A DNA stretch of 64,000 nucleotides, from positions 120,623 to 184,622 of the forward strand of contig MEUZ01000001.1 in the NCBI GenBank assembly GCA_001772615.1, written 5' to 3'. The stretch's first letter is position 1. The number at the start of each line of letters is the position of its first letter. The stretch is from a candidate division WWE3 bacterium RIFCSPHIGHO2_01_FULL_40_23. Its GTDB lineage: Bacteria > Patescibacteriota > WWE3 > UBA101185 > 2-01-FULL-41-18. The position numbers and the translations under genes were made by a program. Positions 24,354-61,628 of this stretch are shown here, piece by piece. Under the pieces are notes generated by a model that saw nothing but the letters and a program-made list of their open reading frames with translations, had not been told where the DNA came from and did not search any database.

Positions 24354-24368
24354 ACAGATTGCTGGCAT

Positions 24369-36563: not shown

Positions 36564-36583
36564 GATAAACTGGCTTAAAGCTG

Positions 36584-38141: not shown

Positions 38142-38194
38142 TACAAACGGTTTAATGTTAATGTTTCAGATTTAAAATATCTGATACTACTTAG

Positions 38195-38893: not shown

Positions 38894-38915
38894 CCGTGCA
38901 ATAATAGCATTTGAG

Positions 38916-39806: not shown

Positions 39807-39941
39807 CGAGGGCATGTAGGAGCGTTTTTGCGGTTTGATAGTGAGGCCGAAGAAGCGGTAAAAACATTTACGAAGCGGCGCCTCTTTTAAAACCCCCATT
39901 CGCTAGCCATAAATCGTATAAAACAATGATATAATGTAAGT

Positions 39942-40139: not shown

Positions 40140-40798
40140 GTAATTTTAAGATACTCACAGCGAGGCAGCAAAAGTTCCTAGACGCTTTCAGCAAAACGAG
40201 CGACCTCTCAAAAATATTCTATCTATCAGGAGGCACTACACTGGCAGAATACTACATACCTTATAGGTACTCCGAAGACTTGGATTTTTTCTCCGATAAG
40301 GATATTGAAACCGAGCCTTTGATAGTCTTTACCAAATCATTAAAAAATTCTCTGAACTACAATACTTTTGACTTTAACACCAGCTTTAACCGGAATTTGA
40401 TTTTTTTAAACTTTGGTGATGAAGTACTAAAAACAGAATTTACTTATTTTCCTTTTACTCCTATTGAAAACCCAAAATTAGTTAACGGAGTTTTGGTTGA
40501 CAGCGTGCTTGATATCGCGGTAAATAAGCTTTTTACAATATATCAAAAACCCAGAAGCAGAGACTTCATGGATCTTTACATGATAATTAACAAATACCCT
40601 TATTCCCTGGAAAACATAATTTCAAAAGCAAAATCAAAATTTGATTGGAATATTGACCCAATTAAGTTGGGGACACAGTTTCTTTTGGCAAAGGAGTTGA
40701 AAGATTATCCAAAACTCATGGAGCCTATTGACGAAAATAAATGGCAAGCTTTTTTTGAAGAGGCTGCGAAAAACTTGGGTGAGAGGATCTTTGAGTAA
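40136..40798 (+). CDS. AbiEii/DUF1814-type nucleotidyltransferase toxin (abortive infection / type IV TA)
   Basis: LSGGTTLAEYYIPYRYSEDLDFF matches the AbiEii GGTAL...R.SEDiDf signature. Confidence 0.65.
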   Translation: MSNFKILTARQQKFLDAFSKTSDLSKIFYLSGGTTLAEYYIPYRYSEDLDFFSDKDIETEPLIVFTKSLKNSLNYNTFDFNTSFNRNLIFLNFGDEVLKTEFTYFPFTPIENPKLVNGVLVDSVLDIAVNKLFTIYQKPRSRDFMDLYMIINKYPYSLENIISKAKSKFDWNIDPIKLGTQFLLAKELKDYPKLMEPIDENKWQAFFEEAAKNLGERIFE

Positions 40799-40828
40799 CC
40801 GCACCCCTGGCTGATAATCCTTCAAAAA

Positions 40829-49049: not shown

Positions 49050-50795
49050 ATGGAAATACTCAATAAGATAAAAGAACTTTTAACCCAAGGGTTTATTAAC
49101 GAAGAAAACGGCGTTCTAAAAGAATCGGTTATCGGAAATATTTTTTTGAGTTTGGGCACTTCAGTATTATGTTTTGCAGCTTCTCTGCTTTTACTAAACT
49201 CATTAGGATTTTTTCTGGGGTTTGAAGTTTCATCTCTTTCCGTAATGATCTCATTAGTCGTAAGTGCTTTATTCCTCATCATTTCCGCTGGCAAACTATC
49301 AGGTTTTAAATGGGTGCCTTTTGGTTTGTTAGCATTTGCACTAATTGTACTTGCAGGTTTCTATGTAATGAAATTCCAGTCAAAAGTTTTTGACATTTCA
49401 TATGACGGGCAGGCTTATCATCAGGAGGCTATTTTTCAGTTAGTCAAAGGCTGGAATCCCGTTTATAAACAACTGACTTCCGAAGAAGCCAACAACATGC
49501 ACAGACTCCTTAACCACTATTCAAAAGGCCCCTGGATTATGTCGGCGTCCATATTTAAGTTAACCGGGCAGATAGAAACCGCAAAAATCTTCACTCCCCT
49601 ATTTATTATTGCTTCATTTCTTATAGTAGCCTCTTTTCTGACATCAGTAAGGAGCATTAATCCGGTTTTTAGTATTTCCATTGCTTTGCTTGCCGCCTTA
49701 AACCCCGTATCCATATATCAATCCTTAAGCTTTTACGTTGACGGACAGCTTATGTCACTACTTATTTGCCTTATCAGCGCTTCCGCCATAGTTTACCTCT
49801 CAAAAAACAGCTACTCCCTGTGGACTCTTTTTTCCACTCTGGTAATTCTTCTTAACATTAAGCTTACGGCGGTCGCTTACGCCACCATTCTTCTTGCCGG
49901 TCCTTTTTTAGCTTTATTTTTAAAGGAAAAAATTGATAAGCTAATTGCCTTTTCATCAGTTACAGTAGTCTCTTATTTCATAGGTATCGTAGTCATAGGA
50001 TTTAATCCTTATGTAACTAACACGCTTTACAAAGGAAATCCGCTATATCCTGTGGTAGGAAGCGGAGCGGAAGCTTACATTGAGGGCAACATGCCGGAAA
50101 ATTACTTTAACAAAAACCCCGTCTCAAGGCTCTTTTCGTCAGCATTTTCAAAATCCGAAAACGTAAGAGGAAAAGGTAAATTCGCGTCCCTTAAAAATCC
50201 ATTTTCGGTTTCACCGGAGGAGACAAAGGCTTTTGGGGCAATGGGAGCAAAAGTCGGCGGGTGGGGCCCACTCTTCGGGGCCGCTTTAATAATTTCACTT
50301 TTAGGATTTGCTACACTAATAGCTTTAGGAAAAGAAACAAAGCTTGGAAAAAGCGCCCTTTTAATAATAGGGCTAATACTTATCTCATGCTTTATTAACC
50401 CCATTTCTTCTTTAGCGAGATTCGTCCCTCAATTTTATTTAATTCCTTTAATAATTAGTGTGTTTATCTTTATGGGAAGGGGTGTGTTCACAAAAACATT
50501 TGGCATTGCCGTTATGGCAATCCTTATTGCCAACAATTATTTGATCGCACAAAGTTATTTCAATTACAACTTTGAGATGACAAAAAGATGGGAGGAGAAG
50601 CTTGTTGAGCTCTCCGACAGGTCGGGAGAAAAGGCTCTTGTTATTGATTTTGATCAATTCAGATTAAGCGGGATGGAAAGATTTAAAAACTACGGAATTG
50701 ACTATATAGAAGCCAAATCGGAAGAGTGCAAGAACAGTGCCAGATTGTTCCCCGAAAGCGTGATTATAGAATGTAAAGAGCAAAGTTCAAACTGA
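49050..50795 (+). CDS. large polytopic membrane protein (>=12 TM), possibly a GT-C-fold glycosyltransferase or polymerase
   Basis: Hydropathy and gene context only. Confidence 0.4.
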   Translation: MEILNKIKELLTQGFINEENGVLKESVIGNIFLSLGTSVLCFAASLLLLNSLGFFLGFEVSSLSVMISLVVSALFLIISAGKLSGFKWVPFGLLAFALIVLAGFYVMKFQSKVFDISYDGQAYHQEAIFQLVKGWNPVYKQLTSEEANNMHRLLNHYSKGPWIMSASIFKLTGQIETAKIFTPLFIIASFLIVASFLTSVRSINPVFSISIALLAALNPVSIYQSLSFYVDGQLMSLLICLISASAIVYLSKNSYSLWTLFSTLVILLNIKLTAVAYATILLAGPFLALFLKEKIDKLIAFSSVTVVSYFIGIVVIGFNPYVTNTLYKGNPLYPVVGSGAEAYIEGNMPENYFNKNPVSRLFSSAFSKSENVRGKGKFASLKNPFSVSPEETKAFGAMGAKVGGWGPLFGAALIISLLGFATLIALGKETKLGKSALLIIGLILISCFINPISSLARFVPQFYLIPLIISVFIFMGRGVFTKTFGIAVMAILIANNYLIAQSYFNYNFEMTKRWEEKLVELSDRSGEKALVIDFDQFRLSGMERFKNYGIDYIEAKSEECKNSARLFPESVIIECKEQSSN

Positions 50796-50940: not shown

Positions 50941-52533
50941 TTAAAAATTGGCGCTCTCATTACCCTTATTGATATCGCCAACAGAATAAACCCAGATAGT
51001 GGGGTTGTGGTAATACTTCACGGTTGATGAAGCTTCCAGGTAATTGGGGGCAATAAAGTCGGATTCAAACGCGTCAACTTTAAACTTTGCGACCAATCGG
51101 CTTCTTTTTAGAAATTTCTGAAACTCCTCCCAGCCTTCCCTATATTTATCAGCGTTCCTATAATTTTCAAATACCCTTATGTCCTGGCTGGTTAGAACAA
51201 CCAAACTGTTGTCAATATTCCAATTTTCTTTAGTTCTTGGTGCACCCGCCAGCAACTTAGAATTGTACCCGGCTACATAGGTATGATATCCAATGTCATG
51301 AGCTCCACCCAAAAAATGGACCTCCATATCCCTTGTCACATTCACAAGAAGCCACTCCAAAGCCACTTCCCTGGTGTCTTTCTTAGTTAAGTAGTAATCA
51401 AAAATAACAATTCTTGCCAAAGAAACACAAAATATCAAGATTACCACTATAGATCCGGCCAGAGCCCGCCTGGTAAATAATTTATAGATAAAAAAAGCGG
51501 CAAAAAACGCCAGGAAAGGGGTGATGGCAGTAAGAAGCCGATCAAAGCGGACAGACCTCGTCCCAATAACCACAAAATACAAAGCAGGAAATAACATTAC
51601 ATACAACTTATGACCATAATCTGATTTTAAATAGAAAAACGCTCCGGCAATGCTCGCAAAAAACAACGGGTAATACAGCCCAACCTTAAGAGCGTACTGG
51701 AAAAAAAAGTTAAAAGAGGACATTCCATTAGCGGCGGAGGCATATATAGCGTTATTTTGAATTTCCATCGCCTCCGTTATCAATCGCGGCCAAATGTTAA
51801 CCGGCGCAGTTATGAAAAACTCAAATTGTGAAAGAACAAATCCCACAATGCTAAAGAATCCGATGATTACAAATTTTATAAACAGTCCTTTGATGTCAAT
51901 ATTCTTTTTCGCCCACTGCCGAATTAAAAAAACTAGTAGCGGAACTAAAAACAGCGTCCCATTTAGCCTAATAGACATTGCCAATCCCGCGGAAAAAGCA
52001 GCACTCATAAGATGGGCCGGTCTGTTTGAGGTGATGTATAAAATACTTAAATAAATTGATAAAAGACCAAGAAAGTGGGTATAAACATCCTGCCTTAAGT
52101 AATGGGAAGTCTGCACGTCTACGAAAGTTATACTCAAAAATAGCGCCGACAGAAGAGCGAGCTTTTCATCAAATAATTCCCTGACAATCAAAAATATAAA
52201 TAAGACATTAATAGTTGAGAGTACCGCACTTAATACACGCCCAATATAAAGAGTGCTGGCTCTATACATTCGGTCAGCGCTGGGACTTTTGATGAGGCTT
52301 ATCTTGTTTTCAACCACCGCCGCGTCTATCGTCTGCACCACATAATGCATAATATTTAGAGCCTCTCCTTTTTTGTAGTCCACTTTATACTCCCCCCTGG
52401 CTTTGGCGATAGTTAAAGTCTCATCGGTATGAGTAAAAAAGACAGGCAGGCCAAAATCCGCTCCCCAAAACCTTAGAATAAATGCAAAAAATAATACCGA
52501 AATCAAGAGCTTATTCTCGGTCAATTCAAGCAT
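50941..52533 (-). CDS. GT-C-fold membrane glycosyltransferase (PMT/ArnT GT39/GT83-like)
   Basis: Multi-TM N-terminal domain with an acidic DE motif in the first loop (FFTHTDETL), plus a C-terminal soluble domain. Confidence 0.45.
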   Translation of the reverse strand: MLELTENKLLISVLFFAFILRFWGADFGLPVFFTHTDETLTIAKARGEYKVDYKKGEALNIMHYVVQTIDAAVVENKISLIKSPSADRMYRASTLYIGRVLSAVLSTINVLFIFLIVRELFDEKLALLSALFLSITFVDVQTSHYLRQDVYTHFLGLLSIYLSILYITSNRPAHLMSAAFSAGLAMSIRLNGTLFLVPLLVFLIRQWAKKNIDIKGLFIKFVIIGFFSIVGFVLSQFEFFITAPVNIWPRLITEAMEIQNNAIYASAANGMSSFNFFFQYALKVGLYYPLFFASIAGAFFYLKSDYGHKLYVMLFPALYFVVIGTRSVRFDRLLTAITPFLAFFAAFFIYKLFTRRALAGSIVVILIFCVSLARIVIFDYYLTKKDTREVALEWLLVNVTRDMEVHFLGGAHDIGYHTYVAGYNSKLLAGAPRTKENWNIDNSLVVLTSQDIRVFENYRNADKYREGWEEFQKFLKRSRLVAKFKVDAFESDFIAPNYLEASSTVKYYHNPTIWVYSVGDINKGNESANF

Positions 52534-52547: not shown

Positions 52548-53468
52548 ATGAAATTCTCAGTTGGAATTTGTGTCTATAACGAGGAAAAAAACATAAAGCA
52601 GATACTGCATAGTGTTTTTTCCCAAAAACTTGGAGGTCATGTCCTATCCGAAGTTTTGGTTGTGGCTTCAGGTTGTACTGACAAAACCGTGCCCGCAGTC
52701 AAAAAACTGCAAAAAAAAGAAACTAAAATAAAACTAATTGAGCAAGTAAAGAGAGAAGGTAAAGCTTCTGCTCTCAATTTATTCGTAAAAAAAGCCAAAA
52801 ACAGAAATCTTATTTTATTAAGCGCGGACACAATGCTTGAAAAAAACACGTTCATGCATCTTCTTGATTCTCTGTCACAGGAGCAAGTGGGCATGTCGGG
52901 GGCCCGAGTTATACCTATAAACAACAAGGACACTTTTATCGGATACGCCGTTCATTTACAATGGAGGCTCCATCATTTATTGAACCTGGATGAAAAAAAG
53001 CAGCCAAAAATTGGAGAGATTGTCGCTTTTAAGAAGATTTTTGAACGGATCCCGCCCTCCTCCGCCGTGGACGAGGCAAGCATTGAACCTCTCATCCACA
53101 ACCAGTCCTACGCCGTTGTTTACAACCCAAGCGCGATTATTTACAATAAGGGTCCCGAAACAATATTAGACTTCATCAAACAGCGTAGAAGGATTTACTC
53201 TGGGCATACAGCGTTAAAATATAGGCAAAACTATAGGGTTAGCACGTACAGCGGCCTTAAAATTATGAAAGTGCTTATAAAAAACCTGGAATTGCGCCCA
53301 ATTTATATTGTTTATACAATCGGCGCTATAGCACTGGAGGGTTTTTCAAGGTTGCTTGGGACAATTGACTATTTTTTAAAGACCAAAGATCACACGGTCT
53401 GGGAAGTGTCAAAAACAACTAAAACATCTTTTAGTAATCTAAAAGTGGTAAAAAATTATGATAATTGA
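52548..53468 (+). CDS. family 2 glycosyltransferase
   Basis: N-terminal FSVGICVYNEEKNI ... SADTM pattern typical of GT2. Confidence 0.7.
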   Translation: MKFSVGICVYNEEKNIKQILHSVFSQKLGGHVLSEVLVVASGCTDKTVPAVKKLQKKETKIKLIEQVKREGKASALNLFVKKAKNRNLILLSADTMLEKNTFMHLLDSLSQEQVGMSGARVIPINNKDTFIGYAVHLQWRLHHLLNLDEKKQPKIGEIVAFKKIFERIPPSSAVDEASIEPLIHNQSYAVVYNPSAIIYNKGPETILDFIKQRRRIYSGHTALKYRQNYRVSTYSGLKIMKVLIKNLELRPIYIVYTIGAIALEGFSRLLGTIDYFLKTKDHTVWEVSKTTKTSFSNLKVVKNYDN

Positions 53469-53700
53469 AGTGGACAGGGAAAAATGCGTGGGCGCTCTGC
53501 CCTGCATAGCCGTTGCGCCTAAAACATTTAAACTTGACAAAGACAAAAAAGCATACGTTATTGACCCGAAAGGAAATAACTATAAAACGGTGCTGCTAGC
53601 GGCGAGATCATGCCCGGTAAAAGCTATCAAAATTTTTGATGACCAGGGTAAAGAAGTTTATCCGGGTAGTGAATTTAACAAGGAAGACAACACCTTTTAA
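53458..53700 (+). CDS. Pyrococcus-type single-cluster ferredoxin (C-x2-A-x2-C ... CP)
   Basis: CVGALPC ... SCPVKAI. Same ligand pattern as the ferredoxin at 5010..5240. Confidence 0.6.
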   Translation: MIIEVDREKCVGALPCIAVAPKTFKLDKDKKAYVIDPKGNNYKTVLLAARSCPVKAIKIFDDQGKEVYPGSEFNKEDNTF

Positions 53701-53706
53701 GGACCT

Positions 53707-54786
53707 ATGTTACAACTATTATCAAAGATCCCTCAATATAAATTAGCCTATCATCTGGGATGGCCCAAGATATTACCAGCTAACTACACCTTCATTATCT
53801 CCACATTTTGCAATTCCAGATGCAAAACCTGCTATGTCTGGAAGCAGCAGCACGAAGAATTAGTCCTGGATGAATGGAAAAAAATATTAAAAAGCATAGG
53901 CAAGGCCCCTTTCTGGGTCACGGTATCGGGAGGTGAACCATTTATACAGCCGCATATCGCCGAGCTTTGCAAAATGATATGTGAAATATGTGAACCCGCT
54001 ATTCTGAATATTCCAACCAACTCTACAATGTACAAAATTATCCCCGGGAGGCTAAAAGAGATTTTGGAAGGGGCAAAGAAAACACAAATTATCATAAACC
54101 TTTCCTTGGATGGGGTTGGAGAAAAACACGACCAAATAAGACGCACTCATAACAATTTTGAGTATTTTAAAGAGAACTACAAGAACATTAAAAAAATGAA
54201 GGCAAGCTATGACAACTTAACCGTCGGTATTCATTCAGTAATATCAAAGTTTAATTTTAACGACGCAAGAGAACTCTTTGACTATGCCTTAGGCTTGGAA
54301 CCCGACCAGTACATCACCGAGATTGCGGAAGAACGCAAGGAGCTGGATACTCACGGCAAAGCCATAACGCCATCATATGAAGAATACTCTCAAGCTATTG
54401 ATAATTTAATTGAACGGATCAAAAAAAGAAGGTTTACAGGAATGGCTAAAATAACGGAGAGCTTTAGACTGGAGTATTATGACATGGTAAAAAAATGGTT
54501 GAAAAGAAGAGAGCAGATTTTCCCATGTTTTGCGGGAGTTGCCAGCTGTCAGGTTTCAAGCTGGGGAGAGGTATGGCCGTGCTGCATTAGAGGAGACAAA
54601 ATGGGAGACTTGCGGGCTGTAGATTACGATTTTAAGAAAGCATGGTTCAACCAGGAGGCGGACAGAATAAGAAGAAGCATAAAAAATAGAGAATGTGAGT
54701 GCCCTCTTGCTAATGCAAGTTACACCAATATGCTTATGCATGTTGCAACCTTAACCAAAGTAGGGCTTAGAGTATTAATCCCTTAA
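53707..54786 (+). CDS. radical SAM enzyme with a C-terminal SPASM/twitch-like Cys-rich domain
   Basis: CNSRCKTC (Cx3Cx2C), GGEP SAM-binding motif, and a C-terminal CFAGVASCQ...WPCC...CEC cluster. Confidence 0.75.
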   Translation: MLQLLSKIPQYKLAYHLGWPKILPANYTFIISTFCNSRCKTCYVWKQQHEELVLDEWKKILKSIGKAPFWVTVSGGEPFIQPHIAELCKMICEICEPAILNIPTNSTMYKIIPGRLKEILEGAKKTQIIINLSLDGVGEKHDQIRRTHNNFEYFKENYKNIKKMKASYDNLTVGIHSVISKFNFNDARELFDYALGLEPDQYITEIAEERKELDTHGKAITPSYEEYSQAIDNLIERIKKRRFTGMAKITESFRLEYYDMVKKWLKRREQIFPCFAGVASCQVSSWGEVWPCCIRGDKMGDLRAVDYDFKKAWFNQEADRIRRSIKNRECECPLANASYTNMLMHVATLTKVGLRVLIP

Positions 54787-55737
54787 CCGATCTTTTTCCC
54801 ACAACCACAAATAAACCGCACCTGCCAGCGCCGGAGCCGTGCGGGCAATAATAAAGGAAACAATAGACATCCCAAGTATTTTTTCCGGTGATGCTGTGTA
54901 TTCACCAAGTACCAGTAAAAGCGCGGCCTCTCTTGTTCCTATTCCGCTAACGGTAATGGGTATCAACCCAATCACTGATGAAAAACTCAATGCTGATACC
55001 AACACAGGAAAGGAAACTCCTAAATTAACTGACAGAGAAATAAGATATATACAAGTATAAACAGTCACCCAAGCGAAAAGTGAAATTATCAAAGGATAAA
55101 AAGACTCTCCCAGTGTGGGTATATTTCTATACAGATTCTTAATCTTAGTACCGTATCTAGACTTAATATCGGAAGGAATGACGAAATTGTAAATAGCAAC
55201 AGCCAGTCTTCCGAATAAACTTTTGTCAAGCAGGCCTGTAGAAAGACCCACCAAAATAAAGATAATGGAAAATCCGTAAATGTAGTTGTTCCATCTGGAA
55301 TGCACAAACATTAATGTCCCTATTGATGCAATAATCAGTAAGGAGACGGCCTCCAAAAACTTATCCGTTAAAGTGGTTAAAACCAAAACCTCTTTTTTTA
55401 TGCTTTTGTCCCTCAAATAAAGCATTTTCGCCAGAGTGCCTACCTGCGTCGGTGTAATTATTGAGTAAAAATATCCGATACATGTGGCTCTAAAGAGGTC
55501 GCTTAACGGGACATGAACATTTTTTTTCGCCAAAAGACATTGCCAGCGATAACTTGTTAAGATTATGTATAAAATCAATGGAAATACAGACAACAACAGT
55601 AAAATTACATTCATTTCCTTCACTGTATTAAGGAGATTGGATATTCCAACTTTGTAAATCAACAAAAAAATTAAGAATAAACCAAAAGTTAATGCTATTT
55701 TTATATAGTGGTTTTTGATCAGCTTAAAAAATCTCAT
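54775..55737 (-). CDS. UPF0104/lysyl-PG-synthase-TM-type flippase-like membrane protein
   Basis: SYRWQCLL ... ITPTQVGTLAKMLYL signature, 8 TM. Confidence 0.55.
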   Translation of the reverse strand: MRFFKLIKNHYIKIALTFGLFLIFLLIYKVGISNLLNTVKEMNVILLLLSVFPLILYIILTSYRWQCLLAKKNVHVPLSDLFRATCIGYFYSIITPTQVGTLAKMLYLRDKSIKKEVLVLTTLTDKFLEAVSLLIIASIGTLMFVHSRWNNYIYGFSIIFILVGLSTGLLDKSLFGRLAVAIYNFVIPSDIKSRYGTKIKNLYRNIPTLGESFYPLIISLFAWVTVYTCIYLISLSVNLGVSFPVLVSALSFSSVIGLIPITVSGIGTREAALLLVLGEYTASPEKILGMSIVSFIIARTAPALAGAVYLWLWEKDRLRD

Positions 55738-55738: not shown

Positions 55739-56896
55739 TTAGAGGAAATTAAGTCCCATTCTGTCTAAAATAAATGGTGTGAAATCTATTAACCTACCGG
55801 CTCCTATTTTCCCGGCGTTTGAAATATACACCGACTTTTCGCCATCCAGGTTCTGTCCATACCCATGCATTGCCTTAACTTCGTTGAATCCCTGAAAATG
55901 GTTGGGATAGATTAAACTGCCCTCATGAACTGCGTAAATTAAATCCCCAAATCTGTTATCCTTAAAGTTGAGGTGATACTTTTCCTTGATATCATCACTT
56001 ACAAAATAACCAAAACTTTTATCTTTTAGCGCGCCCATTATTTCCTGCTCTATTCCCCTATCTTCCAGGTAAAATCTGGCCATGGTGCTATCCAAAAACA
56101 CTTTGTACTTTTCGGACTTTGGGAGAAATTCCAACAGGTTAACTTTGTTTTTAACTTCTATCAAACCATGGTCGGACCAGATGATTATCAAGTCCTCCTC
56201 CCAGGAAAAATCACTAACAATTGACCGGATATGTTTATCCTGTTCAATTAATTTTTCCTTCAATAAAGTCACATCCGGACCGTACAAGTGGCCAAAGTAA
56301 TCTAAATCCCATAAATGCATAAAATACAAATCAGCTTCAGAGCGTTTTAAAAGGCTTTTAAAGTAGCTGGCTCGGGAAAGATCGCGATTTCTTACAAATG
56401 GTGTAAGGCGCGACTTCTCGCGGCTTGAAAAAACCAAAGGCCAGTTATACCCGATGTATATTTTGGAATTATCGTCTAAATAGTTGAATAAAGTTTTAAC
56501 TGCCAGAGCGCTTCGTTTATGATAAAACTTTTCGGGCGACTGTTTGAACTCTTTCAAAACTTTAAGGTCAACGGCCGGAGTAAAAAAATCTTTTCCAAGC
56601 GCAAAATTCAAAAGATTTATCAAATAAAAAGAATAGGGATTAGGAACTACTCTTACAATCTGATAAAAAACCTTATCCAAAAATGATCTTTGTTGATTTA
56701 AGATAAAACTGGAAAACTGGTTTGTCTCTTCGGGGTACTTTCCCGTGATAAAAGTGGAGAAAATACTGCCGTAGCCTAGCATCCCCTCACAAAAATTTAA
56801 TCCATACCGTGCCTTTAAGGAATGAAGAAACGGCATAGTTTCCGGTTTTATGTAATCGTGTCTTAGGGCGTCAACCCAGAGGATAAGAACTTTCAT
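55739..56896 (-). CDS. alkaline-phosphatase-superfamily metalloenzyme (type I phosphodiesterase/nucleotide pyrophosphatase-like)
   Basis: ILWVDALRHDYI metal-site motif near the N-terminus, later WSDHG. No CxPxR sulfatase motif. Confidence 0.55.
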   Translation of the reverse strand: MKVLILWVDALRHDYIKPETMPFLHSLKARYGLNFCEGMLGYGSIFSTFITGKYPEETNQFSSFILNQQRSFLDKVFYQIVRVVPNPYSFYLINLLNFALGKDFFTPAVDLKVLKEFKQSPEKFYHKRSALAVKTLFNYLDDNSKIYIGYNWPLVFSSREKSRLTPFVRNRDLSRASYFKSLLKRSEADLYFMHLWDLDYFGHLYGPDVTLLKEKLIEQDKHIRSIVSDFSWEEDLIIIWSDHGLIEVKNKVNLLEFLPKSEKYKVFLDSTMARFYLEDRGIEQEIMGALKDKSFGYFVSDDIKEKYHLNFKDNRFGDLIYAVHEGSLIYPNHFQGFNEVKAMHGYGQNLDGEKSVYISNAGKIGAGRLIDFTPFILDRMGLNFL

Positions 56897-58197
56897 ACAA
56901 TTTTAAGAAAAAAATAAAGTACATAGGCATTTGATAATACCCGGCTTATGATGTTCCACTCTTCTTCCGGGTTGTGAGAAGCTTCTTTTACCGGATACGT
57001 TTTTTCTAAGTAATACCGAGCTTTGCCAAGCATCTTAGGATCTATACTTTTGTCGTCTTGAATTGAGTATATTAAATAAATTAAGCTGGTAAAAATTGTT
57101 AAATCAGGCCCCCGCGGGTTTAGCAAACACTTTGGATAGAAAACCTTCCTCAAGATCCACATTCTATAAAAGTATAAAATATTCAAAAAACTCATTGCGG
57201 CATAAACTGCTGCTGTCAGCCAAAACCCTTTCAATCTGAATCTAAATCCAACATAAGGACCGTAGTACAACTCCCATAGGTCATGGTAAATGATTTCGGC
57301 CAGCCGGGGATAGTCATCAATTTTCTTCCTTACCAAACGGGAAACATAGTACTTGGTGCTTTCTCCCACAGGGATTCTATATTCCTGAAAAATCTCAAAT
57401 GGAGAAATTTTTATGGAAAAATCAGGATTTAATTTGAAATCTAAGGCTTTTTGCGCTAGGTTGGGCAAATCCGGGATTTTGGAATGCAACTCTTTAAAGT
57501 CGTCCTTGTAACATTTGTGAAAAACCCGAGCTCTTTCTCTGTATGAAGGTTTAAATTTGTCATTCAACAGAAGCAGAGCCGTAGGGATGTCTACCAGAGC
57601 TTTCCCTCCCAAATACAAAAGCCCATGTTTCTCGCTACGGGAAATAGTTCGGCGCAGAAAGTCGGTAGAGAAATAGTGCGATAGCATTGCAATCCTATTG
57701 AGCAGAACTCTTAAACCTTCTGCAAGCGGCAGGTCCTTGATCTTAAATTCAGGTATTCTGGCTAAATAATCTTTACCCCAAATTACTGCACCGGCGTTAC
57801 GCAGCTCGTAGTATCTAATCATAGGCAGGATCTTCCCCAAGTCCTCCGTCTTGAAAGCCTTAAGATCAATGTAAAAAGTGTCAGCATAATCTTCTTTTGA
57901 AAAAGAATGAAAAGGTACCCCTGTTTTCTTCAGACCAAGCTTTCCCGAAGCTTTGTTTGCAGCTTCATTCAGCCGCTTCTCGGAAACTTTGGATTCAACG
58001 ACTAAATAAATTTCAAAATCGTTCACCGGGACAAGTTTATCTCCCCTCCTTTCAAGACTTCCCTCTCCTCGCCCGAAGCCTCCTGCGAGAATAATACTTT
58101 TTATCTCGGGGAGTTCTTTCCGCAGTACTCCCACCACAATGTCCAGATATTCCCGGACACATTTGTCAGACTTAGGGCCTTGAGCTGTATATCTCAT
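56893..58197 (-). CDS. hypothetical protein with an N-terminal Pol-beta-type nucleotidyltransferase motif
   Basis: LAGGFGRGEGS...VNDFEIYLV. Confidence 0.4.
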   Translation of the reverse strand: MRYTAQGPKSDKCVREYLDIVVGVLRKELPEIKSIILAGGFGRGEGSLERRGDKLVPVNDFEIYLVVESKVSEKRLNEAANKASGKLGLKKTGVPFHSFSKEDYADTFYIDLKAFKTEDLGKILPMIRYYELRNAGAVIWGKDYLARIPEFKIKDLPLAEGLRVLLNRIAMLSHYFSTDFLRRTISRSEKHGLLYLGGKALVDIPTALLLLNDKFKPSYRERARVFHKCYKDDFKELHSKIPDLPNLAQKALDFKLNPDFSIKISPFEIFQEYRIPVGESTKYYVSRLVRKKIDDYPRLAEIIYHDLWELYYGPYVGFRFRLKGFWLTAAVYAAMSFLNILYFYRMWILRKVFYPKCLLNPRGPDLTIFTSLIYLIYSIQDDKSIDPKMLGKARYYLEKTYPVKEASHNPEEEWNIISRVLSNAYVLYFFLKIV

Positions 58198-59195
58198 AGG
58201 TAGCCATTCTTTTTATACCAGCTGACTGCCTCATTAATCCCTGCCTTTAAATCAATAGGGTTGTAATTCAGATCGGTCATTGCTTTAGTTACGTTAAACA
58301 CCCTGTTTGCGGTAATGTAATCAATGCTTTTTCTGGTTATGCCAAAATCAATCCCTGTAATGTTTTTGATTTTTTCAAAAAAGAAGGCTCCTGTGTAAGC
58401 AACAGGCAACGGTACGTGAAACCCGGAATATTTGACATTTAATTCTTTAGCTATTGTCTCAACAAGCTCATTTAATTCATAAGACCTTTTATCTGAAATG
58501 ATGTATGTTTGATTAGTGGAAGTTGTGTTCTCAATAACTCTCATAACCGCCTGGACAACGTTTGATACGTGAACAAGGGGCAGTTTGTTTTTCCCACTTC
58601 CAAAAATGGGGAATACGTGTTTCCGTATAAGTTTCATAAATTTTAAAATCGCCCGATCTACCTTCAGTATTTCGGGGTTGCTCACACCGCCTCCGTACAC
58701 CATAGAAGGGCGCAAGATGGTGAATGTAAAACCGTACTTTGACGCGTATCCTTTAACGAGAAGCTCACCTTCGTATTTGCTGCGATCGTAAGGTTGAACC
58801 GGGCGGCACTTATCTTCTTCGCTTAACACCTTGTGAGTGTTTATTCCCATCGCGTCTACACTGCTTAAATAAATAAACTTCTTTATTCCTTTGCTCTGCT
58901 TGAGAAGGTTTTCCGTGCCCGTTACATTGATTTCTTTAAACCGGTGGCCTTCGGTTTTAAGGTCTTTTACGTTTGTCAAAGCGGCGCCGTGGATCACAAC
59001 ATCTATGCCAGTACATATTCCGTTGAGGGATGCCAAGTAAGTTAAATCCGCAGTAAATTTCTCAACGTTACCAGGCAAAAAACCGGTTTGCGAACCCTTT
59101 CTTACCAGGCACCTAAGCCGATAATTCTTGGCTAAAAGAGCTTTTACCAAGTGCCTGCCGATAAAACCTCCTGCCCCTGTCAGTAGTATTTTCAT
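58194..59195 (-). CDS. NAD-dependent epimerase/dehydratase (extended SDR)
   Basis: MKILLTGAGGFIGRHL, YxxxK (YDRSKYEGE). Confidence 0.8.
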   Translation of the reverse strand: MKILLTGAGGFIGRHLVKALLAKNYRLRCLVRKGSQTGFLPGNVEKFTADLTYLASLNGICTGIDVVIHGAALTNVKDLKTEGHRFKEINVTGTENLLKQSKGIKKFIYLSSVDAMGINTHKVLSEEDKCRPVQPYDRSKYEGELLVKGYASKYGFTFTILRPSMVYGGGVSNPEILKVDRAILKFMKLIRKHVFPIFGSGKNKLPLVHVSNVVQAVMRVIENTTSTNQTYIISDKRSYELNELVETIAKELNVKYSGFHVPLPVAYTGAFFFEKIKNITGIDFGITRKSIDYITANRVFNVTKAMTDLNYNPIDLKAGINEAVSWYKKNGYL

Positions 59196-59962
59196 TCCAC
59201 TTCTCCAAAAACGAACTGATGGTGGGCAAAAACAAAACTTACTGGCCTAAATATGGGTTTTCTTTCAAGAAAGGACCATTTATCAACAAGTTCAAGACAC
59301 CTTTCAGCTTTCCTTAAATCAGTAGATCTCTTCGAGTTATAATCAACCGCAGGACTTTGCTTAAAAACGTTCCTTTTGACCTCGGCAAAAGACGCGGCGG
59401 TATCAGGCCACCACGGAATGTCAATATAACCGCTTTTTAGCGGCTTGATTCGTTCTTTTCTCATGGCGTTTTTAAGCCCTAAGATTGTCCTTAAGGCTCT
59501 GGAACCTCTTTCCGCGTGAGTACACACTTTATTTGCAAACAGGTGATATCCAAAGTGAAACACTGCCCCATAATTAAACAGGTTTGGCGTAAACACCAGT
59601 ACATATTTATTGGAGTATTTCCTCATTTGGTTAATAACTTCAGGCGTTATTTGGGCTGCAGCAAAATTCCATACCAGGTTATATTTCTTGCTACCTAAAT
59701 CGGGGACAAACTTCGGCTTCTCTTTAAACTTCCAAAGATTTTTCAGATCTAAGCTTCTGTCATAAACCGACACGTCTTTTCCTTTTTTAAGAAAAACCAA
59801 GTTGTCATACCCTTTGGTGAACGGGCACTCATACTCTAATATTGAGCTGACGATAATTTCACCTATCAAATTTTCCAGAAATTCTCCCAGCATTACCCGC
59901 TCGTAAACAGACCCCAAACCCTCATCCAACGTGTTCTCTATAATCAATTTCTTAACATTCAT
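59192..59962 (-). CDS. hypothetical protein (glycan cluster)
   Basis: ORF only. Confidence 0.35.
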   Translation of the reverse strand: MNVKKLIIENTLDEGLGSVYERVMLGEFLENLIGEIIVSSILEYECPFTKGYDNLVFLKKGKDVSVYDRSLDLKNLWKFKEKPKFVPDLGSKKYNLVWNFAAAQITPEVINQMRKYSNKYVLVFTPNLFNYGAVFHFGYHLFANKVCTHAERGSRALRTILGLKNAMRKERIKPLKSGYIDIPWWPDTAASFAEVKRNVFKQSPAVDYNSKRSTDLRKAERCLELVDKWSFLERKPIFRPVSFVFAHHQFVFGEVE

Positions 59963-59966: not shown

Positions 59967-60710
59967 TTACTTTCTAACTTTCAAAACGCAAATTTCTTTT
60001 TTAAAAGGTATTTTTGATATTACAATACCTAGCATTTTTTTGACCGGTGTTATTTTTGTGCCTTTAACCCCTAGATCTCCAAACCAGGCCTCTACCGCGC
60101 TTGCTTCCGTATAGGCTTCAATTTTGAAATTATGGTATTTAAACATTTCAATTAGAGCTTTTTTAGTGAAATGCGCCATGTGCCCGGAAATGCGATTTTC
60201 CGAAAACGCTCCATAGTTTTTTTCAAGAGAAGTGCTCCCGCTCATCATTTGAAAACCAAGAGCTAATAATACGATGTTCACCAAACTATCAGTCCTTGGA
60301 ACAGTTATTACTGCTACTCCCCCTTTCTTCAATAACCGGTATATCTCATCCACCACAAAATCCGTGTTGTAAACATGCTCCAGGGTATCCAAACATGTGA
60401 TTAAATCAAAGTATCCGCTCGCAAAAGGGGTTTCTTTGTCTTCATTTAAATCAATCTCAAAAGCATTAACACCCCTCTTTCTCGCCTCTTTTACATTCGC
60501 GACATCAACCCCATAAGCTTCTTTGGCATTCACTTTTTCGGCAATATACTTTGTCACTAAACCGTTGCTGCACCCGATATCCAAATACCTGTTAACTTCT
60601 TTGTTTCCGATAATTTTTACCGCCTTTCTGATCCTATCGTCAATATAATCATGCGGAAACTGCTCGGATATTTTTTTGTTCACGAGTGATACTTTAGATG
60701 TTGATTTCAT
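59967..60710 (-). CDS. class I SAM-dependent methyltransferase
   Basis: YLDIGCSNGLVT motif I, DLITCLDTLEHV. Confidence 0.7.
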   Translation of the reverse strand: MKSTSKVSLVNKKISEQFPHDYIDDRIRKAVKIIGNKEVNRYLDIGCSNGLVTKYIAEKVNAKEAYGVDVANVKEARKRGVNAFEIDLNEDKETPFASGYFDLITCLDTLEHVYNTDFVVDEIYRLLKKGGVAVITVPRTDSLVNIVLLALGFQMMSGSTSLEKNYGAFSENRISGHMAHFTKKALIEMFKYHNFKIEAYTEASAVEAWFGDLGVKGTKITPVKKMLGIVISKIPFKKEICVLKVRK

Positions 60711-60713
60711 TCA

Positions 60714-61628
60714 CTATTTACTGCATTTAACAACTAAGCTATATCCTTTAGAACTCAAGATATCATCTGCCAGATAAAAAGGGTAAAAGAAGGGAAAGGT
60801 GGTTACAATCGCCAACTCACTGGCAAATGAATACTTGTTTTTATTGTCTTTATTCCACTCGAAAAACTTGAGCGAATGAATAATGGAATGAGGCAGAATA
60901 GAAAAAAACTTGATATTGTAGTTAATCTTATTTATCTTAAAACCTCTTTTTTCCAGCTTTGAGACCAATTGATCCTCCGTGTAAGTCTGATAATGGGTGT
61001 ACTTTTTATCCGCCAGCTGCCGGTATTGCTTAGGGGTGCTGGCATGAGAAAGGACGGAGTTAAATAATAATTTCTTAATCTTTGGAGGGAGTTTAATCAA
61101 AACTTTTATAATCGGCATGATTTTTGGCGTGGGCACCGAGAGCACAAATATACCTTCCGGCTTTAATACTCTAAAACATTCATTAAAGGCGTTTTCTTCA
61201 TCCTTAATGTGTTCAAAGGTGGAAATGGAAAATATTTTATCAAAAGTGTTCTCTTCAAAGGGCATTTTCCCCGCGCTTGCCTCTGCATACTTTGCCCTTA
61301 ACCCCATTTTGGCAGCTCTTTCTTTCGCCTTTTTTATTGCCCCTTCCATCACATCCAACCCCGTCACATCATAACCCTGTTTAATTAAGTCATTGGTAAA
61401 AACCCCATCACCGCAGCCCACATCCAGAATTTTATCCTCATTTGCCGGTTTGAGTTCTTTAAACACTAAACGGGCCTCGTTCCTTCTTGGTGGGTAGGGG
61501 TAGCCCAGTATAGATAGAAGCAGATCCGCAGGTTTGTTTTTACCTTTAAAATCAGGAAAGTAACCAAAAGACATCGCTATATTATATACATTTTCGTAGA
61601 TTCCTATGGCTAAAGCCGTTACATCCAT
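60714..61628 (-). CDS. class I SAM-dependent methyltransferase
   Basis: ILDVGCGDGVFT motif I, FDKIFSISTFEHI. Confidence 0.7.
   Translation of the reverse strand: MDVTALAIGIYENVYNIAMSFGYFPDFKGKNKPADLLLSILGYPYPPRRNEARLVFKELKPANEDKILDVGCGDGVFTNDLIKQGYDVTGLDVMEGAIKKAKERAAKMGLRAKYAEASAGKMPFEENTFDKIFSISTFEHIKDEENAFNECFRVLKPEGIFVLSVPTPKIMPIIKVLIKLPPKIKKLLFNSVLSHASTPKQYRQLADKKYTHYQTYTEDQLVSKLEKRGFKINKINYNIKFFSILPHSIIHSLKFFEWNKDNKNKYSFASELAIVTTFPFFYPFYLADDILSSKGYSLVVKCSK

What the first reader, a model, noticed from the sequence alone, without database searches (positions are those of the whole stretch)
53458..54786. Ferredoxin plus radical SAM/SPASM enzyme embedded in a glycan-biosynthesis cluster
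A single-cluster ferredoxin (overlapping the end of the GT2 gene) immediately precedes a radical SAM enzyme with a C-terminal seven-Cys SPASM/twitch-like domain. SPASM enzymes usually mature peptides (RiPPs) or protein cofactors. Here the neighbours are glycosyltransferases, a flippase-like protein, an alkaline-phosphatase-family enzyme, an epimerase and methyltransferases. That points to a radical-mediated modification of a sugar, lipid carrier or glycoprotein, or else to an unrecognised small precursor peptide nearby.
Basis: partly seen in the sequence, partly recalled or inferred. Interest (0 to 1): 0.6.

Follow-up and report, generated by a model that had tools for sequence, protein, structure and literature searches.

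The report
Sugar-pathway radical SAM enzyme with ferredoxin
A small ferredoxin and an uncharacterised radical SAM enzyme sit in a cell-surface sugar gene cluster of a candidate-phylum (WWE3) bacterium; the enzyme family is almost always paired with one particular glycosyltransferase across many bacterial and archaeal phyla, so it probably modifies a sugar and not a peptide.

Summary
Both genes are real. The ferredoxin is 53458-53700 (80 aa, three Cys, CxxAxxC...CP). The radical SAM (rSAM) enzyme is 53707-54786 (359 aa, CX3CX2C at C35/C39/C42). The C-terminal domain is not a seven-Cys SPASM domain. It has six Cys. Four of them (C274, C292, C330, C332) are kept or lost together across relatives, which fits a twitch-type domain with one auxiliary cluster.

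No curated family model claims the enzyme. The closest solved structures share only 14-18% identity.

In 84 non-redundant related loci, the ortholog of the window's GT2 glycosyltransferase lies next to the rSAM gene in 72, usually directly upstream. The taxa include Chloroflexota, Cloacimonadota, Actinomycetota, Saccharibacteria and archaea. An HpnA-like SDR, methyltransferases, GT-C (PMT_2-like) transferases and flippase-like proteins recur nearby.

The ferredoxin occurs only in the window's own clade (four loci, rSAM at least 74% identical).

There is no peptide-recognition domain and no room for a precursor gene, so a peptide-maturase role is very unlikely.

Best reading: an orphan, GT2-coupled twitch rSAM modifies a sugar of a membrane-associated glycoconjugate intermediate, and the ferredoxin is a lineage-specific electron donor. 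The exact reaction is unknown. It is a new variant of a known kind, of moderate interest.

The parts
52548..53468 (+). GT2 glycosyltransferase (306 aa), the conserved partner of the rSAM. It has a D...D / ED (D175-E176) / Q212-RRR motif set and a conserved amphipathic C-terminal segment.
   Evidence: Pfam Glycos_transf_2 77.8 bits, Glyco_tranf_2_3 40.3 bits. Orthologs scoring 190-376 bits lie next to the rSAM gene in 72 of 84 loci. Alignment A2 gives the invariant residues. Best PDB profile hit is 6yv7, a family 2 glycosyltransferase, at 78 bits.
53458..53700 (+). Single-cluster ferredoxin (80 aa) with three Cys (C10-x2-A-x2-C16 ... C52-P). Its start overlaps the GT2 stop by 11 nt and it ends 6 nt before the rSAM start.
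   Evidence: Pfam Fer4_13 46.5 bits and Fer4_15 44 bits. The motif is invariant in the four clade members. It is present only in the window, L009, L092 and L093.
53707..54786 (+). Radical SAM enzyme (359 aa). CX3CX2C at C35/C39/C42. Twitch-type C-terminal domain with C274-x12-G287-x4-C292 plus C330-x-C332. C293 is conserved only within the subfamily.
   Evidence: Pfam Radical_SAM 62.5 bits; SPASM 20.4 bits against a 21.5 cutoff. No NCBIfam model above cutoff. Cys co-variation. AF2 model pLDDT 93.9. Foldseek top hits SkfB, SuiB, CteB, DesII, viperin, MoaA, BlsE, anSME and BtrN at 14-18% identity.
50941..52533 (-). GT-C fold membrane glycosyltransferase (PMT_2, 530 aa), divergent from the GT2 gene with 14 nt between the start codons.
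   Evidence: Pfam PMT_2 55.6 bits. At least 7 hydrophobic segments. PMT_2-like proteins lie within 10 kb of the rSAM in 21 of 84 loci.
54775..55737 (-). Flippase-like polytopic membrane protein (LPG_synthase_TM, 320 aa), convergent with the rSAM gene and overlapping it by 12 nt.
   Evidence: Pfam LPG_synthase_TM 125 bits; NCBIfam TIGR00374 flippase-like domain 62 bits, above its cutoff. Relatives lie near the rSAM in 10 loci, including 6 of 6 Actinomycetota. A similar domain is fused to a family rSAM in P0227.
55739..56896 (-). Alkaline-phosphatase-superfamily phosphodiesterase/phosphotransferase (385 aa); accessory gene.
   Evidence: Pfam Phosphodiest 71 bits. Co-occurs with the NTase-like gene in L001, L008, L009 and L060. 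No C/S-x-P-x-R formylglycine motif.
56893..58197 (-). Nucleotidyltransferase-fold protein (434 aa) that resembles aminoglycoside O-nucleotidyltransferases, with an extra helical domain; accessory gene.
   Evidence: No Pfam, NCBIfam or PDB sequence hit. AF2 model pLDDT 94.4. Foldseek best hits AAD(9), AadA and ANT(4'). 100% identical to a WWE3 hypothetical protein.
58194..59195 (-). Extended SDR ('epimerase/dehydratase', 333 aa) of the HpnA / 3-beta-HSD / OleD-like type.
   Evidence: Pfam Epimerase 142 bits. Best NCBIfam hit is HpnA at 132 bits, below its 367 cutoff. Homologs lie next to the rSAM in 27 of 84 loci.
59192..59962 (-). 256-aa protein, weakly class I methyltransferase-like. A recurrent neighbour of the rSAM in Chloroflexota.
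   Evidence: No Pfam hit. Profile against PDB gives weak glycine N-methyltransferase and MW1564 hits. A member of its ortholog cluster has weak Methyltransf_11 hits. Present in 16 of 84 loci.
59967..61628 (-). Two class I SAM-dependent methyltransferases (247 aa at 59967-60710; 304 aa at 60714-61628) at the head of the minus-strand operon.
   Evidence: Pfam Methyltransf_23/11/25. MT304 orthologs are in L001 and L008.

Best explanation
The window comes from a candidate division WWE3 (CPR) bacterium. GT2, ferredoxin and rSAM form a tightly packed plus-strand unit inside a cell-envelope glycoconjugate cluster.

The rSAM belongs to an uncharacterised, strongly conserved family of twitch-type radical SAM enzymes: one SAM cluster plus one four-Cys auxiliary cluster. 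Its constant partner is one particular GT2.

Most likely mechanism (inferred):
1. The GT2 puts a sugar on a membrane-associated acceptor, either a polyprenyl phosphate or another lipid.
2. The rSAM abstracts a hydrogen atom from that sugar with the 5'-deoxyadenosyl radical.
3. The fully Cys-ligated auxiliary cluster takes up the electron, giving an oxidised (keto) or rearranged sugar, by analogy with BtrN.
4. The HpnA-like SDR then reduces it, giving net epimerisation or deoxygenation-type tailoring.
5. Methyltransferases and the NTase/phosphodiesterase pair decorate the sugar further.
6. The LPG_synthase_TM protein flips the lipid-linked product across the membrane.
7. The PMT_2 GT-C enzyme transfers it to a surface acceptor.

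The three-Cys ferredoxin is a lineage-specific dedicated electron carrier that reduces the SAM cluster, and possibly re-oxidises the auxiliary cluster.

Shown: the gene content, the motifs, the GT2-rSAM coupling, and the absence of peptide-maturase features.
Inferred: the substrate, the site of H abstraction, the order of steps and the role of the ferredoxin.
For: GT2 coupling:
- The orthologous GT2 is adjacent in 72 of 84 non-redundant loci, from Chloroflexota, Cloacimonadota, Actinomycetota, Armatimonadota, Saccharibacteria, PVC/Omnitrophota and archaea.
- 56 of 72 pairs are within 30 nt of each other or overlap.
- In Cloacimonadota the pair sits alone among ribH, nusB and valS, so the two proteins form a self-sufficient unit.

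Conservation: 50-57% identity across phyla and domains, and 1262 50%-identity cluster representatives at E<=1e-30.

Recurrent neighbours: SDR 27, methyltransferase-like 16, GT-C 21 and flippase-like 10 of 84 loci. Other contexts include B12-rSAM methylases, Wzx and Wzz/GNVR proteins.

Fusions in the wider family:
- GT2+rSAM (P0307).
- GT1/4+rSAM (P0257).
- LPG_synthase_TM-like+rSAM (P0227), which places the enzyme at the membrane.
- rSAM plus an FNR-like reductase domain (P0295), which parallels the window's separate ferredoxin.

Auxiliary cluster: four Cys are kept or lost as a set, in a CX12GX4C twitch motif.

Structure: neighbours include the sugar-acting twitch/SPASM enzymes DesII, BlsE and BtrN.

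SDR: its best hit is the hopanoid-associated HpnA type, alongside OleD and the sterol demethylase protein SdmB.

Precedents:
- SDR epimerases acting on polyprenyl-P sugars within synthase/flippase/GT-C three-component systems (PMC11127046).
- rSAM enzymes reshaping a sugar head group on a lipid, Cds and HpnJ (PMC13459092).

Ferredoxin: the gene and its Cys motif are conserved in four independent metagenomic loci of the clade.
Against: - No biochemical data exist for any family member.
- The GT2 lacks strong predicted C-terminal TM helices. It carries an ED plus QRRRx motif set, and its best PDB profile hit is 6yv7 (a family 2 glycosyltransferase, 78 bits), ahead of DPMS, GtrB and ArnC. Its acceptor need not be polyprenyl phosphate.
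- Cloacimonadota loci lack nearby SDR and GT-C genes; only 2 of 29 have a flippase-like gene nearby.
- The seven Calditrichota loci have no adjacent GT2.
- The SDR is adjacent in only about a third of loci.
- Nine orthologs have lost all four auxiliary Cys yet stay in the same kind of cluster. The auxiliary cluster is therefore not indispensable for whatever they do.
- The data cannot tell action on the GT2 product from action on its nucleotide-sugar donor.
- The ferredoxin is absent from more than 95% of loci, so it is not intrinsic to the mechanism.
Confidence: 0.6

Rival explanations
1. The rSAM acts before the GT2. It converts a common nucleotide sugar into an unusual donor (dehydration, deamination, decarboxylation or epimerisation, as with DesII, BlsE or viperin), and the dedicated GT2 then transfers that donor.
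For: Structural neighbours include DesII, BlsE and viperin, which act on nucleotide-linked substrates, and the rSAM core gives weak pVip hits. Many invariant polar or charged residues (H141, R145, D135, E205, E208, R210, E212, R254, Y257, Y258) would suit a phospho-sugar. Extended SDRs of the 4,6-dehydratase/epimerase superfamily are frequent neighbours. Tight pairing with a single GT2 is what one expects for a donor-maker and its transferase.
Against: The SDR resembles lipid-acting HpnA, OleD and 3-beta-HSD types more than the dTDP-glucose dehydratase type: 132 against 90 bits. One family member is fused to a polytopic flippase-like membrane domain (P0227). Flippase-like and GT-C genes recur nearby. 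No nucleotidylyltransferase for sugar-1-phosphate activation is conserved next to the pair.
Confidence: 0.25
2. The rSAM modifies the lipid moiety (a polyprenyl or isoprenoid/alkyl chain) of the GT2's glycolipid, not the sugar, as with Tes, Grs, Mss or HpnH.
For: A geranylgeranyl-reductase-like FAD protein lies directly upstream in 4 of 7 Calditrichota loci. There are weak NCBIfam hits to HpnH (32-38 bits). GDGT-MAS appears among the structural hits. The family occurs in Cloacimonadota and Calditrichota.
Against: Scores to HpnH are far below its 225-bit cutoff. The characterised lipid-tail rSAMs listed in the 2026 review are SPASM enzymes with two auxiliary clusters or B12-dependent enzymes (PMC13459092), unlike this enzyme. 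The universal partner is a glycosyltransferase, not a lipid-synthesis gene.
Confidence: 0.08
3. It is a SPASM/twitch peptide or protein maturase: a RiPP enzyme acting on an unannotated precursor, or an anSME-like enzyme maturing the neighbouring alkaline-phosphatase-family protein.
For: The top structural and sequence hits are the RiPP maturases SkfB, SuiB and CteB, plus anSME. An AP-superfamily gene is in the window cluster. Weak NCBIfam hits go to many peptide maturases.
Against: All of those scores are far below the family cutoffs. There is no N-terminal RRE, because CX3CX2C starts at residue 35. There is no second auxiliary cluster motif. The gaps around the genes are -11, +6 and -12 nt, and no small ORF is conserved across loci. 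The AP-family gene accompanies the rSAM in only 6 of 88 loci (4 after removing near-identical loci) and has no C/S-x-P-x-R motif. In Cloacimonadota the pair sits among housekeeping genes.
Confidence: 0.03
4. It is a housekeeping cofactor enzyme (NirJ/AhbD-like tetrapyrrole modification or MoaA-like) that merely happens to lie in a glycan cluster.
For: The best NCBIfam hits by score are NirJ2 (66 bits), NirJ1, AhbC and AhbD. MoaA is among the structural hits.
Against: The scores are 5-10 times below the cutoffs. No tetrapyrrole or molybdopterin genes are nearby. GT2 adjacency in 72 of 84 loci across phyla cannot be chance.
Confidence: 0.02

Closest known systems
BtrN (2-deoxy-scyllo-inosamine dehydrogenase) and other carbohydrate-acting twitch/SPASM rSAM enzymes (DesII, BlsE)
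   Same: A radical SAM core plus a C-terminal twitch-type domain. The single auxiliary cluster is fully ligated by four Cys, as in BtrN (my own knowledge of the BtrN structure). The likely substrate is a sugar or cyclitol. These enzymes are among the Foldseek hits.
   Different: Only 10-16% identity, with TM-scores of about 0.4-0.6. None of these enzymes is coupled to a GT2, and they belong to antibiotic pathways in single genera. This family is 50-57% conserved across many phyla and archaea.
HpnI/HpnJ (with HpnA and HpnL) of hopanoid side-chain biosynthesis, and calditol synthase Cds
   Same: The same logic: a GT puts a hexose on a lipid and an rSAM then reshapes that sugar (PMC13459092). The window's SDR hits HpnA best. 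Its flippase-like protein weakly hits HpnL, and its GT2 weakly hits HpnI.
   Different: All scores are far below the Hpn family cutoffs: HpnA 132 against 367, HpnL 26 against 196, HpnI 15 against 310, HpnH 32 against 225. HpnJ is a B12-domain rSAM (my own knowledge), and there is no B12 domain here. No squalene-hopene cyclase is nearby. The carriers include CPR, Cloacimonadota and archaea, which are not known to make hopanoids.
Three-component extracytoplasmic glycosylation systems (polyprenyl-P-sugar synthase + flippase + GT-C; Gtr, Arn, the DprE1/E2-arabinan pathway, the Citrobacter pentofuranose system)
   Same: The window has a GT2, a flippase-like membrane protein, a GT-C (PMT_2) and an SDR that could tailor the lipid-linked sugar. 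This matches the architecture and the auxiliary epimerase described in PMC11127046.
   Different: No known system of this type contains an rSAM. The GT2 here is not a typical GtrB/ArnC/DPMS-type synthase (34-48 bits; no strong TM helices). The flippase candidate is of LPG_synthase_TM type, not GtrA, SMR or MATE.
SPASM RiPP maturases (SkfB, SuiB, CteB) and anSME
   Same: These are the best sequence and structure matches in the PDB: SkfB 49 bits, Foldseek E about 1e-12. They share the CX9-15GX4C start of the auxiliary domain.
   Different: There is no RRE domain, no second auxiliary cluster motif, no precursor gene and no sulfatase-type target.

Membership tests
Radical SAM superfamily (PF04055) | CX3CX2C motif for the SAM-binding [4Fe-4S] cluster, and a profile match above the curated cutoff | tested here: met
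   C35-x3-C39-x2-C42 is invariant in 199 of 199 orthologs. Pfam scores 62.5 bits against a 29.5 cutoff.
SPASM domain (PF13186 / TIGR04085-type, two auxiliary clusters) | Seven-Cys motif CX9-15GX4C - gap - CX2CX5CX3C - gap - C | tested here: not met
   Only the first element is present (C274-x12-G287-x4-C292). There is no CX2CX5CX3C; C330-x-C332 stands in its place. Pfam SPASM scores 20.4 bits, below the 21.5 cutoff.
Twitch domain (truncated SPASM, one auxiliary cluster) | C-terminal beta-hairpin/helix extension with CX9-15GX4C plus further Cys, ligating a single auxiliary Fe-S cluster | tested here: met
   Four Cys (274, 292, 330, 332) are present together in 190 of 199 orthologs and lost together in 9. 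They are kept in about 91 of 102 wider-family representatives. The AF2 model shows strands at 280-284 and 288-290 followed by helices. Actual cluster binding cannot be tested with these tools.
RiPP-maturing rSAM enzymes | N-terminal RiPP recognition element (PqqD-like) and a co-encoded precursor peptide | tested here: not met
   The rSAM motif starts at residue 35, and there is no PqqD/RRE Pfam hit. Flanking gaps are -11, +6 and -12 nt. No conserved small ORF appears across 84 loci.
anSME (anaerobic sulfatase-maturating enzyme) | A family profile match, and a sulfatase-type target carrying C/S-x-P-x-R | tested here: not met
   No anSME model is among the 25 best of 55 NCBIfam hits shown, and none of those 25 reaches its cutoff. 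The neighbouring AP-family protein lacks the motif and co-occurs in only 6 of 88 loci.
NirJ / AhbC / AhbD tetrapyrrole rSAM enzymes | NCBIfam equivalog score above the cutoff | tested here: not met
   NirJ2 66 against 500, NirJ1 48 against 650, AhbD 41 against 500 bits.
HpnH / HpnJ hopanoid rSAM enzymes | NCBIfam equivalog score above the cutoff, and a hopanoid gene context | tested here: not met
   HpnH scores 32 bits against a 225 cutoff. HpnJ is not among the 25 best NCBIfam hits shown. No squalene-hopene cyclase is in the window.
Single-cluster ferredoxin (Fer4_13/Fer4_15) | A profile match above the cutoff, and a CxxXxxC...CP cluster motif | tested here: met
   Fer4_13 scores 46.5 bits against 24.5. 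C10-x2-A13-x2-C16 ... C52-P53 is invariant in 4 of 4 sequences. Whether the cluster is [3Fe-4S] or [4Fe-4S] cannot be tested here; three Cys suggest [3Fe-4S] (my own knowledge of such ferredoxins).
Polyprenyl-phosphate glycosyltransferase (GtrB/ArnC/DPMS type), tested on the partner GT2 | A GT-A domain followed by interface helices and C-terminal TM helices, and closest similarity to GtrB, ArnC or DPMS | tested here: inconclusive
   Profile against PDB: 6yv7 (family 2 glycosyltransferase) 78 bits, chondroitin synthase 60, DPMS 48, GtrB 46, ArnC 34. No segment passes a hydropathy threshold of 1.6. A conserved amphipathic C-terminal segment is present.

The most novel reading that the evidence does not exclude
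The GT2-rSAM pair makes a so far undescribed, radical-derived sugar or carbocyclic (cyclitol-like, ring-contracted or C-C rearranged) head group on a lipid carrier. This would be an oxygen-independent counterpart of the calditol and bacteriohopanetetrol-cyclitol chemistry. It would be a widespread, unrecognised envelope component shared by CPR bacteria, DPANN and other archaea, Chloroflexota, Cloacimonadota and Actinomycetota.
Probability: 0.2. Interest if true: 0.8.

Novelty: new variant of a known kind. Interest (0 to 1): 0.58.

Why it matters
Radical SAM enzymes that act on sugars are known almost only from antibiotic pathways and two lipid head-group cases, HpnJ and Cds.

This family is large: 3399 hits at E<=1e-5 and 1262 cluster representatives at E<=1e-30. 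It is conserved at 50-57% identity across at least eight bacterial phylum-level groups and in archaea. It is locked to one glycosyltransferase, and it is retained even in the small genomes of CPR bacteria (WWE3, Saccharibacteria) and a DPANN archaeon.

That pattern points to a common but unknown piece of anaerobic envelope glycobiology. The pair is small and self-contained, and in this clade it comes with its own ferredoxin. It is therefore a tractable target for heterologous expression and in vitro reconstitution. Solving it would assign a function to thousands of 'radical SAM protein' and 'family 2 glycosyltransferase' annotations. It could also reveal a new sugar modification useful as a biomarker or glycoengineering tool.

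Tried and rejected
- NCBIfam and Pfam gave no family above cutoff for the rSAM, for the 434-aa protein or for the 256-aa protein.
- PDB sequence and profile searches gave only remote rSAM core matches.
- PADLOC gave only weak pVip core-domain hits, so this is not a defence system.
- Eight literature searches were run. They covered radical SAM with glycosyltransferase, polyprenyl phosphate, twitch, glycolipid, DprE1, Chloroflexi and CPR. None found a description of this pair. The 2026 review of lipid-modifying rSAM enzymes does not list it.
- I suspected a GT2-rSAM fusion in L013. It is an artefact of a long open frame in high-GC DNA. Real fusions exist only in more distant family members.
- I first thought the invariant C293 might be a catalytic H-atom donor, as in rSAM epimerases. 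I rejected this as a family-wide feature. C293 is Ala in L014 and P0227, and it is Cys in only 49 of 102 wider-family representatives.
- The 257-aa protein downstream of the rSAM in Cloacimonadota is unrelated to the window's 256-aa protein (hhalign probability 0.1). It looks like a membrane-anchored neighbour without obvious relevance.
I worked around this with a homolog search.


Full report
**What is in the window**

The two ORFs exist exactly as reported. One is an 80-aa ORF at 53458-53700 (+). The other is a 359-aa ORF at 53707-54786 (+).

The first passes Pfam Fer4_13 and Fer4_15, the single-cluster ferredoxin models. The second passes Pfam Radical_SAM at 62.5 bits. It scores 20.4 bits on SPASM, just under the 21.5 cutoff.

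The ferredoxin start overlaps the last 11 nt of a GT2 gene (52548-53468). The rSAM start follows the ferredoxin stop by 6 nt. The rSAM end overlaps by 12 nt the end of a convergent LPG_synthase_TM (flippase-like) gene.

That flippase-like gene is the last of seven tightly packed minus-strand genes:
- two class I methyltransferases;
- a 256-aa methyltransferase-like protein;
- an extended SDR;
- a 434-aa protein with no family match;
- an alkaline-phosphatase-superfamily Phosphodiest protein;
- the flippase-like protein.

A PMT_2 (GT-C) gene lies divergently upstream of the GT2, with 14 nt between the start codons.

The 434-aa protein is 100% identical to a hypothetical protein of 'candidate division WWE3 bacterium RIFCSPHIGHO2_01_FULL_40_23'. 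The window is therefore from a CPR bacterium. This agrees with its roughly 40% GC and its bacterial housekeeping genes.

**Correction of the description**

The rSAM has CX3CX2C at C35/C39/C42. Its C-terminal domain has six Cys, not seven: 274, 281, 292, 293, 330, 332.

In 199 distinct close orthologs:
- C274, C292, C330 and C332 are all present in 190, and all four are replaced together in the other 9;
- C281 is usually Ala;
- C293 is Cys in 198.

In 102 full-length representatives of the wider family, the four-Cys set persists in about 91, whereas C293 is Cys in only 49.

The spacing C274-x12-G287-x4-C292 is the first element of the SPASM/twitch motif. The CX2CX5CX3C block that ligates the second SPASM cluster is absent. 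The domain is therefore best called twitch-type, with a single auxiliary cluster ligated by four Cys.

The ferredoxin has three Cys, in an invariant C-x2-A-x2-C ... C-P motif. In known small ferredoxins this pattern goes with a [3Fe-4S] cluster or an atypical [4Fe-4S] cluster (my own knowledge).

**Family placement**

No NCBIfam model comes near its cutoff. The best are NirJ2 at 66 bits against 500 and a generic twitch-domain subfamily model at 58 against 170.

The best PDB sequence match is SkfB, at 30-49 bits and over the rSAM core only.

An AlphaFold model built on 26 homologs is confident, with pLDDT 93.9. Its Foldseek neighbours are the SPASM/twitch group: SkfB, SuiB, CteB, DesII, viperin, MoaA, BlsE, anSME, PqqE and BtrN. 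TM-scores are about 0.5-0.6 and identity is 14-18%.

The enzyme is thus a clear member of the SPASM/twitch branch but not of any characterised family.

The family is large:
- 3399 hits at E<=1e-5 in the 90%-clustered database, most top hits at 52-57% identity;
- 1262 50%-cluster representatives at E<=1e-30.

**Comparative genomics**

I collected 93 related loci. They came from a scan of species-representative genomes and from contigs that encode individual homologs. I then searched their ORFs with the window's proteins.

The decisive result concerns the GT2. The ortholog of the window's GT2 (190-376 bits, 38-55% identity) lies next to the rSAM gene in 72 of 84 non-redundant loci, usually directly upstream.
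- The median stop-to-start distance is about 4.5 nt, and 56 of 72 pairs are within 30 nt or overlap.
- The loci come from Chloroflexota (22 of 25), Cloacimonadota (27 of 29), Actinomycetota (6 of 6), Armatimonadota, Saccharibacteria, PVC/Omnitrophota, and the archaea Methanoperedens and Iainarchaeum.
- The only systematic exception is Calditrichota (0 of 7). There a geranylgeranyl-reductase-like gene often precedes the rSAM.

In Cloacimonadota the pair sits alone between ribH-nusB and valS. The two proteins therefore form a self-sufficient unit.

Elsewhere the pair is embedded in glycan loci:
- an HpnA-like SDR in 27 loci;
- relatives of the 256-aa methyltransferase-like protein in 16;
- PMT_2-like GT-C proteins in 21;
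- LPG_synthase_TM-like proteins in 10, including all six Actinomycetota.

Other neighbours are Wzx flippases, a Wzz/GNVR-kinase, GT4s, kinases, and up to three B12-dependent rSAM methylases in Saccharibacteria and in locus L090.

The window's full gene set recurs in a different gene order in L001 and L008 and in the archaeal L060, and with the same local order in L009. That set is GT2, rSAM, SDR, methyltransferase-like protein, 434-aa protein, Phosphodiest and methyltransferases.

**Fusions in the wider family**

Several more distant family members are fusion proteins, and the fusions point the same way:
- P0307 is GT2 + TM segment + rSAM. Its rSAM part is 31% identical to the window's enzyme.
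- P0257 is GT1/4 + rSAM.
- P0227 is a polytopic LPG_synthase_TM-like domain + rSAM. The Pfam match is weak, but the GxGxRE motif is shared.
- P0295 carries a C-terminal FNR-like FAD-binding reductase domain.

The membrane-domain fusion argues that the enzyme works at the cytoplasmic face of the membrane. The reductase fusion is a functional parallel to the window's separate ferredoxin. These are single metagenomic sequences, and I could not inspect their contigs.

**The ferredoxin**

A homologous ferredoxin gene sits between GT2 and rSAM, or directly upstream of rSAM, only in the window and three metagenomic relatives. Their rSAMs are 74-84% identical to the window's enzyme: L009, L092 and L093. 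It is found in none of the other loci.

So Fd-rSAM pairing is real but specific to this lineage. The natural reading is a dedicated low-potential electron carrier for reductive cleavage of SAM. It was added in a clade of reduced-genome bacteria, while other lineages use general reductants or, in a few cases, fused domains. This is inference.

**Against a peptide or protein substrate**

- The rSAM motif begins at residue 35, so there is no room for an N-terminal RRE.
- No PqqD-like domain is detected.
- The second SPASM cluster motif is missing.
- The flanking gaps leave no room for a precursor gene.
- No small ORF is conserved across loci.
- The alkaline-phosphatase-family neighbour accompanies the rSAM in only 6 of 88 loci and has no C/S-x-P-x-R formylglycine motif.
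- PADLOC finds only weak viperin-core similarity.

**Likely mechanism**

What is shown is the coupling to a glycosyltransferase and to glycan, flippase and GT-C genes. The chemistry is inferred.

A four-Cys, fully ligated auxiliary cluster cannot bind substrate directly. In BtrN and anSME such a cluster is thought to accept the electron released when a substrate radical is oxidised to a carbonyl (my own knowledge of those systems).

Combined with the frequently adjacent HpnA/3-beta-HSD/OleD-like SDR, this suggests the following route:
1. H abstraction from a sugar carbon of the GT2-linked intermediate.
2. Oxidation to a keto sugar.
3. Stereo-inverting reduction, or other tailoring, by the SDR.
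4. Methylation.
5. Flipping by the LPG_synthase_TM protein.
6. Transfer by the GT-C enzyme.

This mirrors known three-component glycosylation systems, which include SDR epimerases acting on polyprenyl-P sugars (PMC11127046). It also mirrors the DprE1/DprE2 logic, with an oxygen- and flavin-independent oxidant.

The other precedent is rSAM-catalysed reshaping of a lipid-linked hexose: HpnJ after HpnI, and calditol synthase (PMC13459092). A ring contraction or other rearrangement therefore cannot be excluded.

Weak points:
- The GT2 is not a typical GtrB/ArnC/DPMS-type synthase. It has ED and QRRRx motifs, its best PDB profile match is 6yv7 (a family 2 glycosyltransferase), and it has no strong TM helices.
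- The pair stands alone in Cloacimonadota.
- Nine orthologs lack the auxiliary Cys yet keep the same context.
- The data cannot separate action on the GT2 product from action on its nucleotide-sugar donor. The latter is the main rival.

**Accessory genes**

The 434-aa protein models confidently, with pLDDT 94.4. It resembles the aminoglycoside O-nucleotidyltransferases AAD(9), AadA and ANT(4'). It always sits next to the Phosphodiest gene.

Its family is tiny, with 39 hits, and is shared by CPR bacteria and DPANN archaea.

Together with the three methyltransferase-type genes, this suggests a phospho- or nucleotidyl-type decoration of a sugar hydroxyl in the window's version of the pathway. This is speculative and peripheral to the Fd-rSAM question.

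**Novelty and verdict**

Eight full-text searches found no description of this pair. A 2026 review of lipid-modifying rSAM enzymes does not mention it. No curated model names it.

It is a new variant of a known kind: a twitch-type rSAM acting in carbohydrate metabolism. Three things set it apart. It is obligately coupled to a GT2. It is very widely distributed. It is retained in reduced CPR and DPANN genomes.

The main interpretation is supported. The peptide alternative and the 'seven-Cys SPASM' detail are not.

Interest is moderate to good. The function is unknown, but the system is compact and directly testable.

Noticed in passing
window 56893-58197 (-) and 55739-56896 (-): A 434-aa protein with no sequence-family match folds like the aminoglycoside O-nucleotidyltransferases AAD(9), AadA and ANT(4'). 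It is always paired with an alkaline-phosphatase-family Phosphodiest gene (L001, L008, L009, L060). The family has only 39 detectable members, shared between CPR bacteria and DPANN archaea (Woesearchaeota, Nanoarchaeota).
   Followed up: partly
P0307, P0227, P0257, P0295, P0207, P0174 (wider rSAM family): Natural fusions of family rSAMs with GT2, an LPG_synthase_TM-like membrane domain, GT1/4, an FNR-like FAD-binding reductase domain, an intein, and HEAT/LRV repeats. Homologs of 485-513 aa (P0010, P0017, P0057, P0104) carry a Cys-rich C-terminal extension of unknown nature.
   Followed up: partly
P0009, P0012, P0026, P0040, P0071, P0078, P0079, P0081, P0107; locus L090: A subgroup of close orthologs has lost all four auxiliary-cluster Cys at once. 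It still sits in a GT2 / MT-like / rSAM / SDR cluster with three B12-dependent rSAM genes.
   Followed up: partly
L023, L028, L029, L031 (Calditrichota): These rSAM orthologs have no adjacent GT2. A geranylgeranyl-reductase-like FAD protein lies directly upstream, and type IX secretion-related genes lie downstream.
   Followed up: partly
window 52533/52548: The divergent PMT_2 and GT2 genes have start codons only 14 nt apart, and about 1 nt apart in L009. Their promoters must therefore lie inside each other's coding regions, or the annotated starts are wrong.
   Followed up: no
window 23563-25911 and about 36500-40800: A tRNA-Asn gene (23563-23637) is followed by a large serine recombinase (24394-25911, CcrB/XisF-like). 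Further on are a C39-like peptidase (36584-37741), a FemAB-like protein (38916-39806) and an AbiEii toxin (40136-40798). This may be an integrated mobile element.
   Followed up: no
window 49050-50795 (+) and 46296-47627 (+): A 581-aa protein with about 11 hydrophobic segments and no family match lies next to the PMT_2 gene and could be another GT-C-like or polymerase-like membrane protein. A CBM96 + fibronectin-III protein lies upstream.
   Followed up: no
window 20001-22000: A local GC peak (0.48 against about 0.40 elsewhere) with no rRNA or other Rfam match. It was not examined.
   Followed up: no
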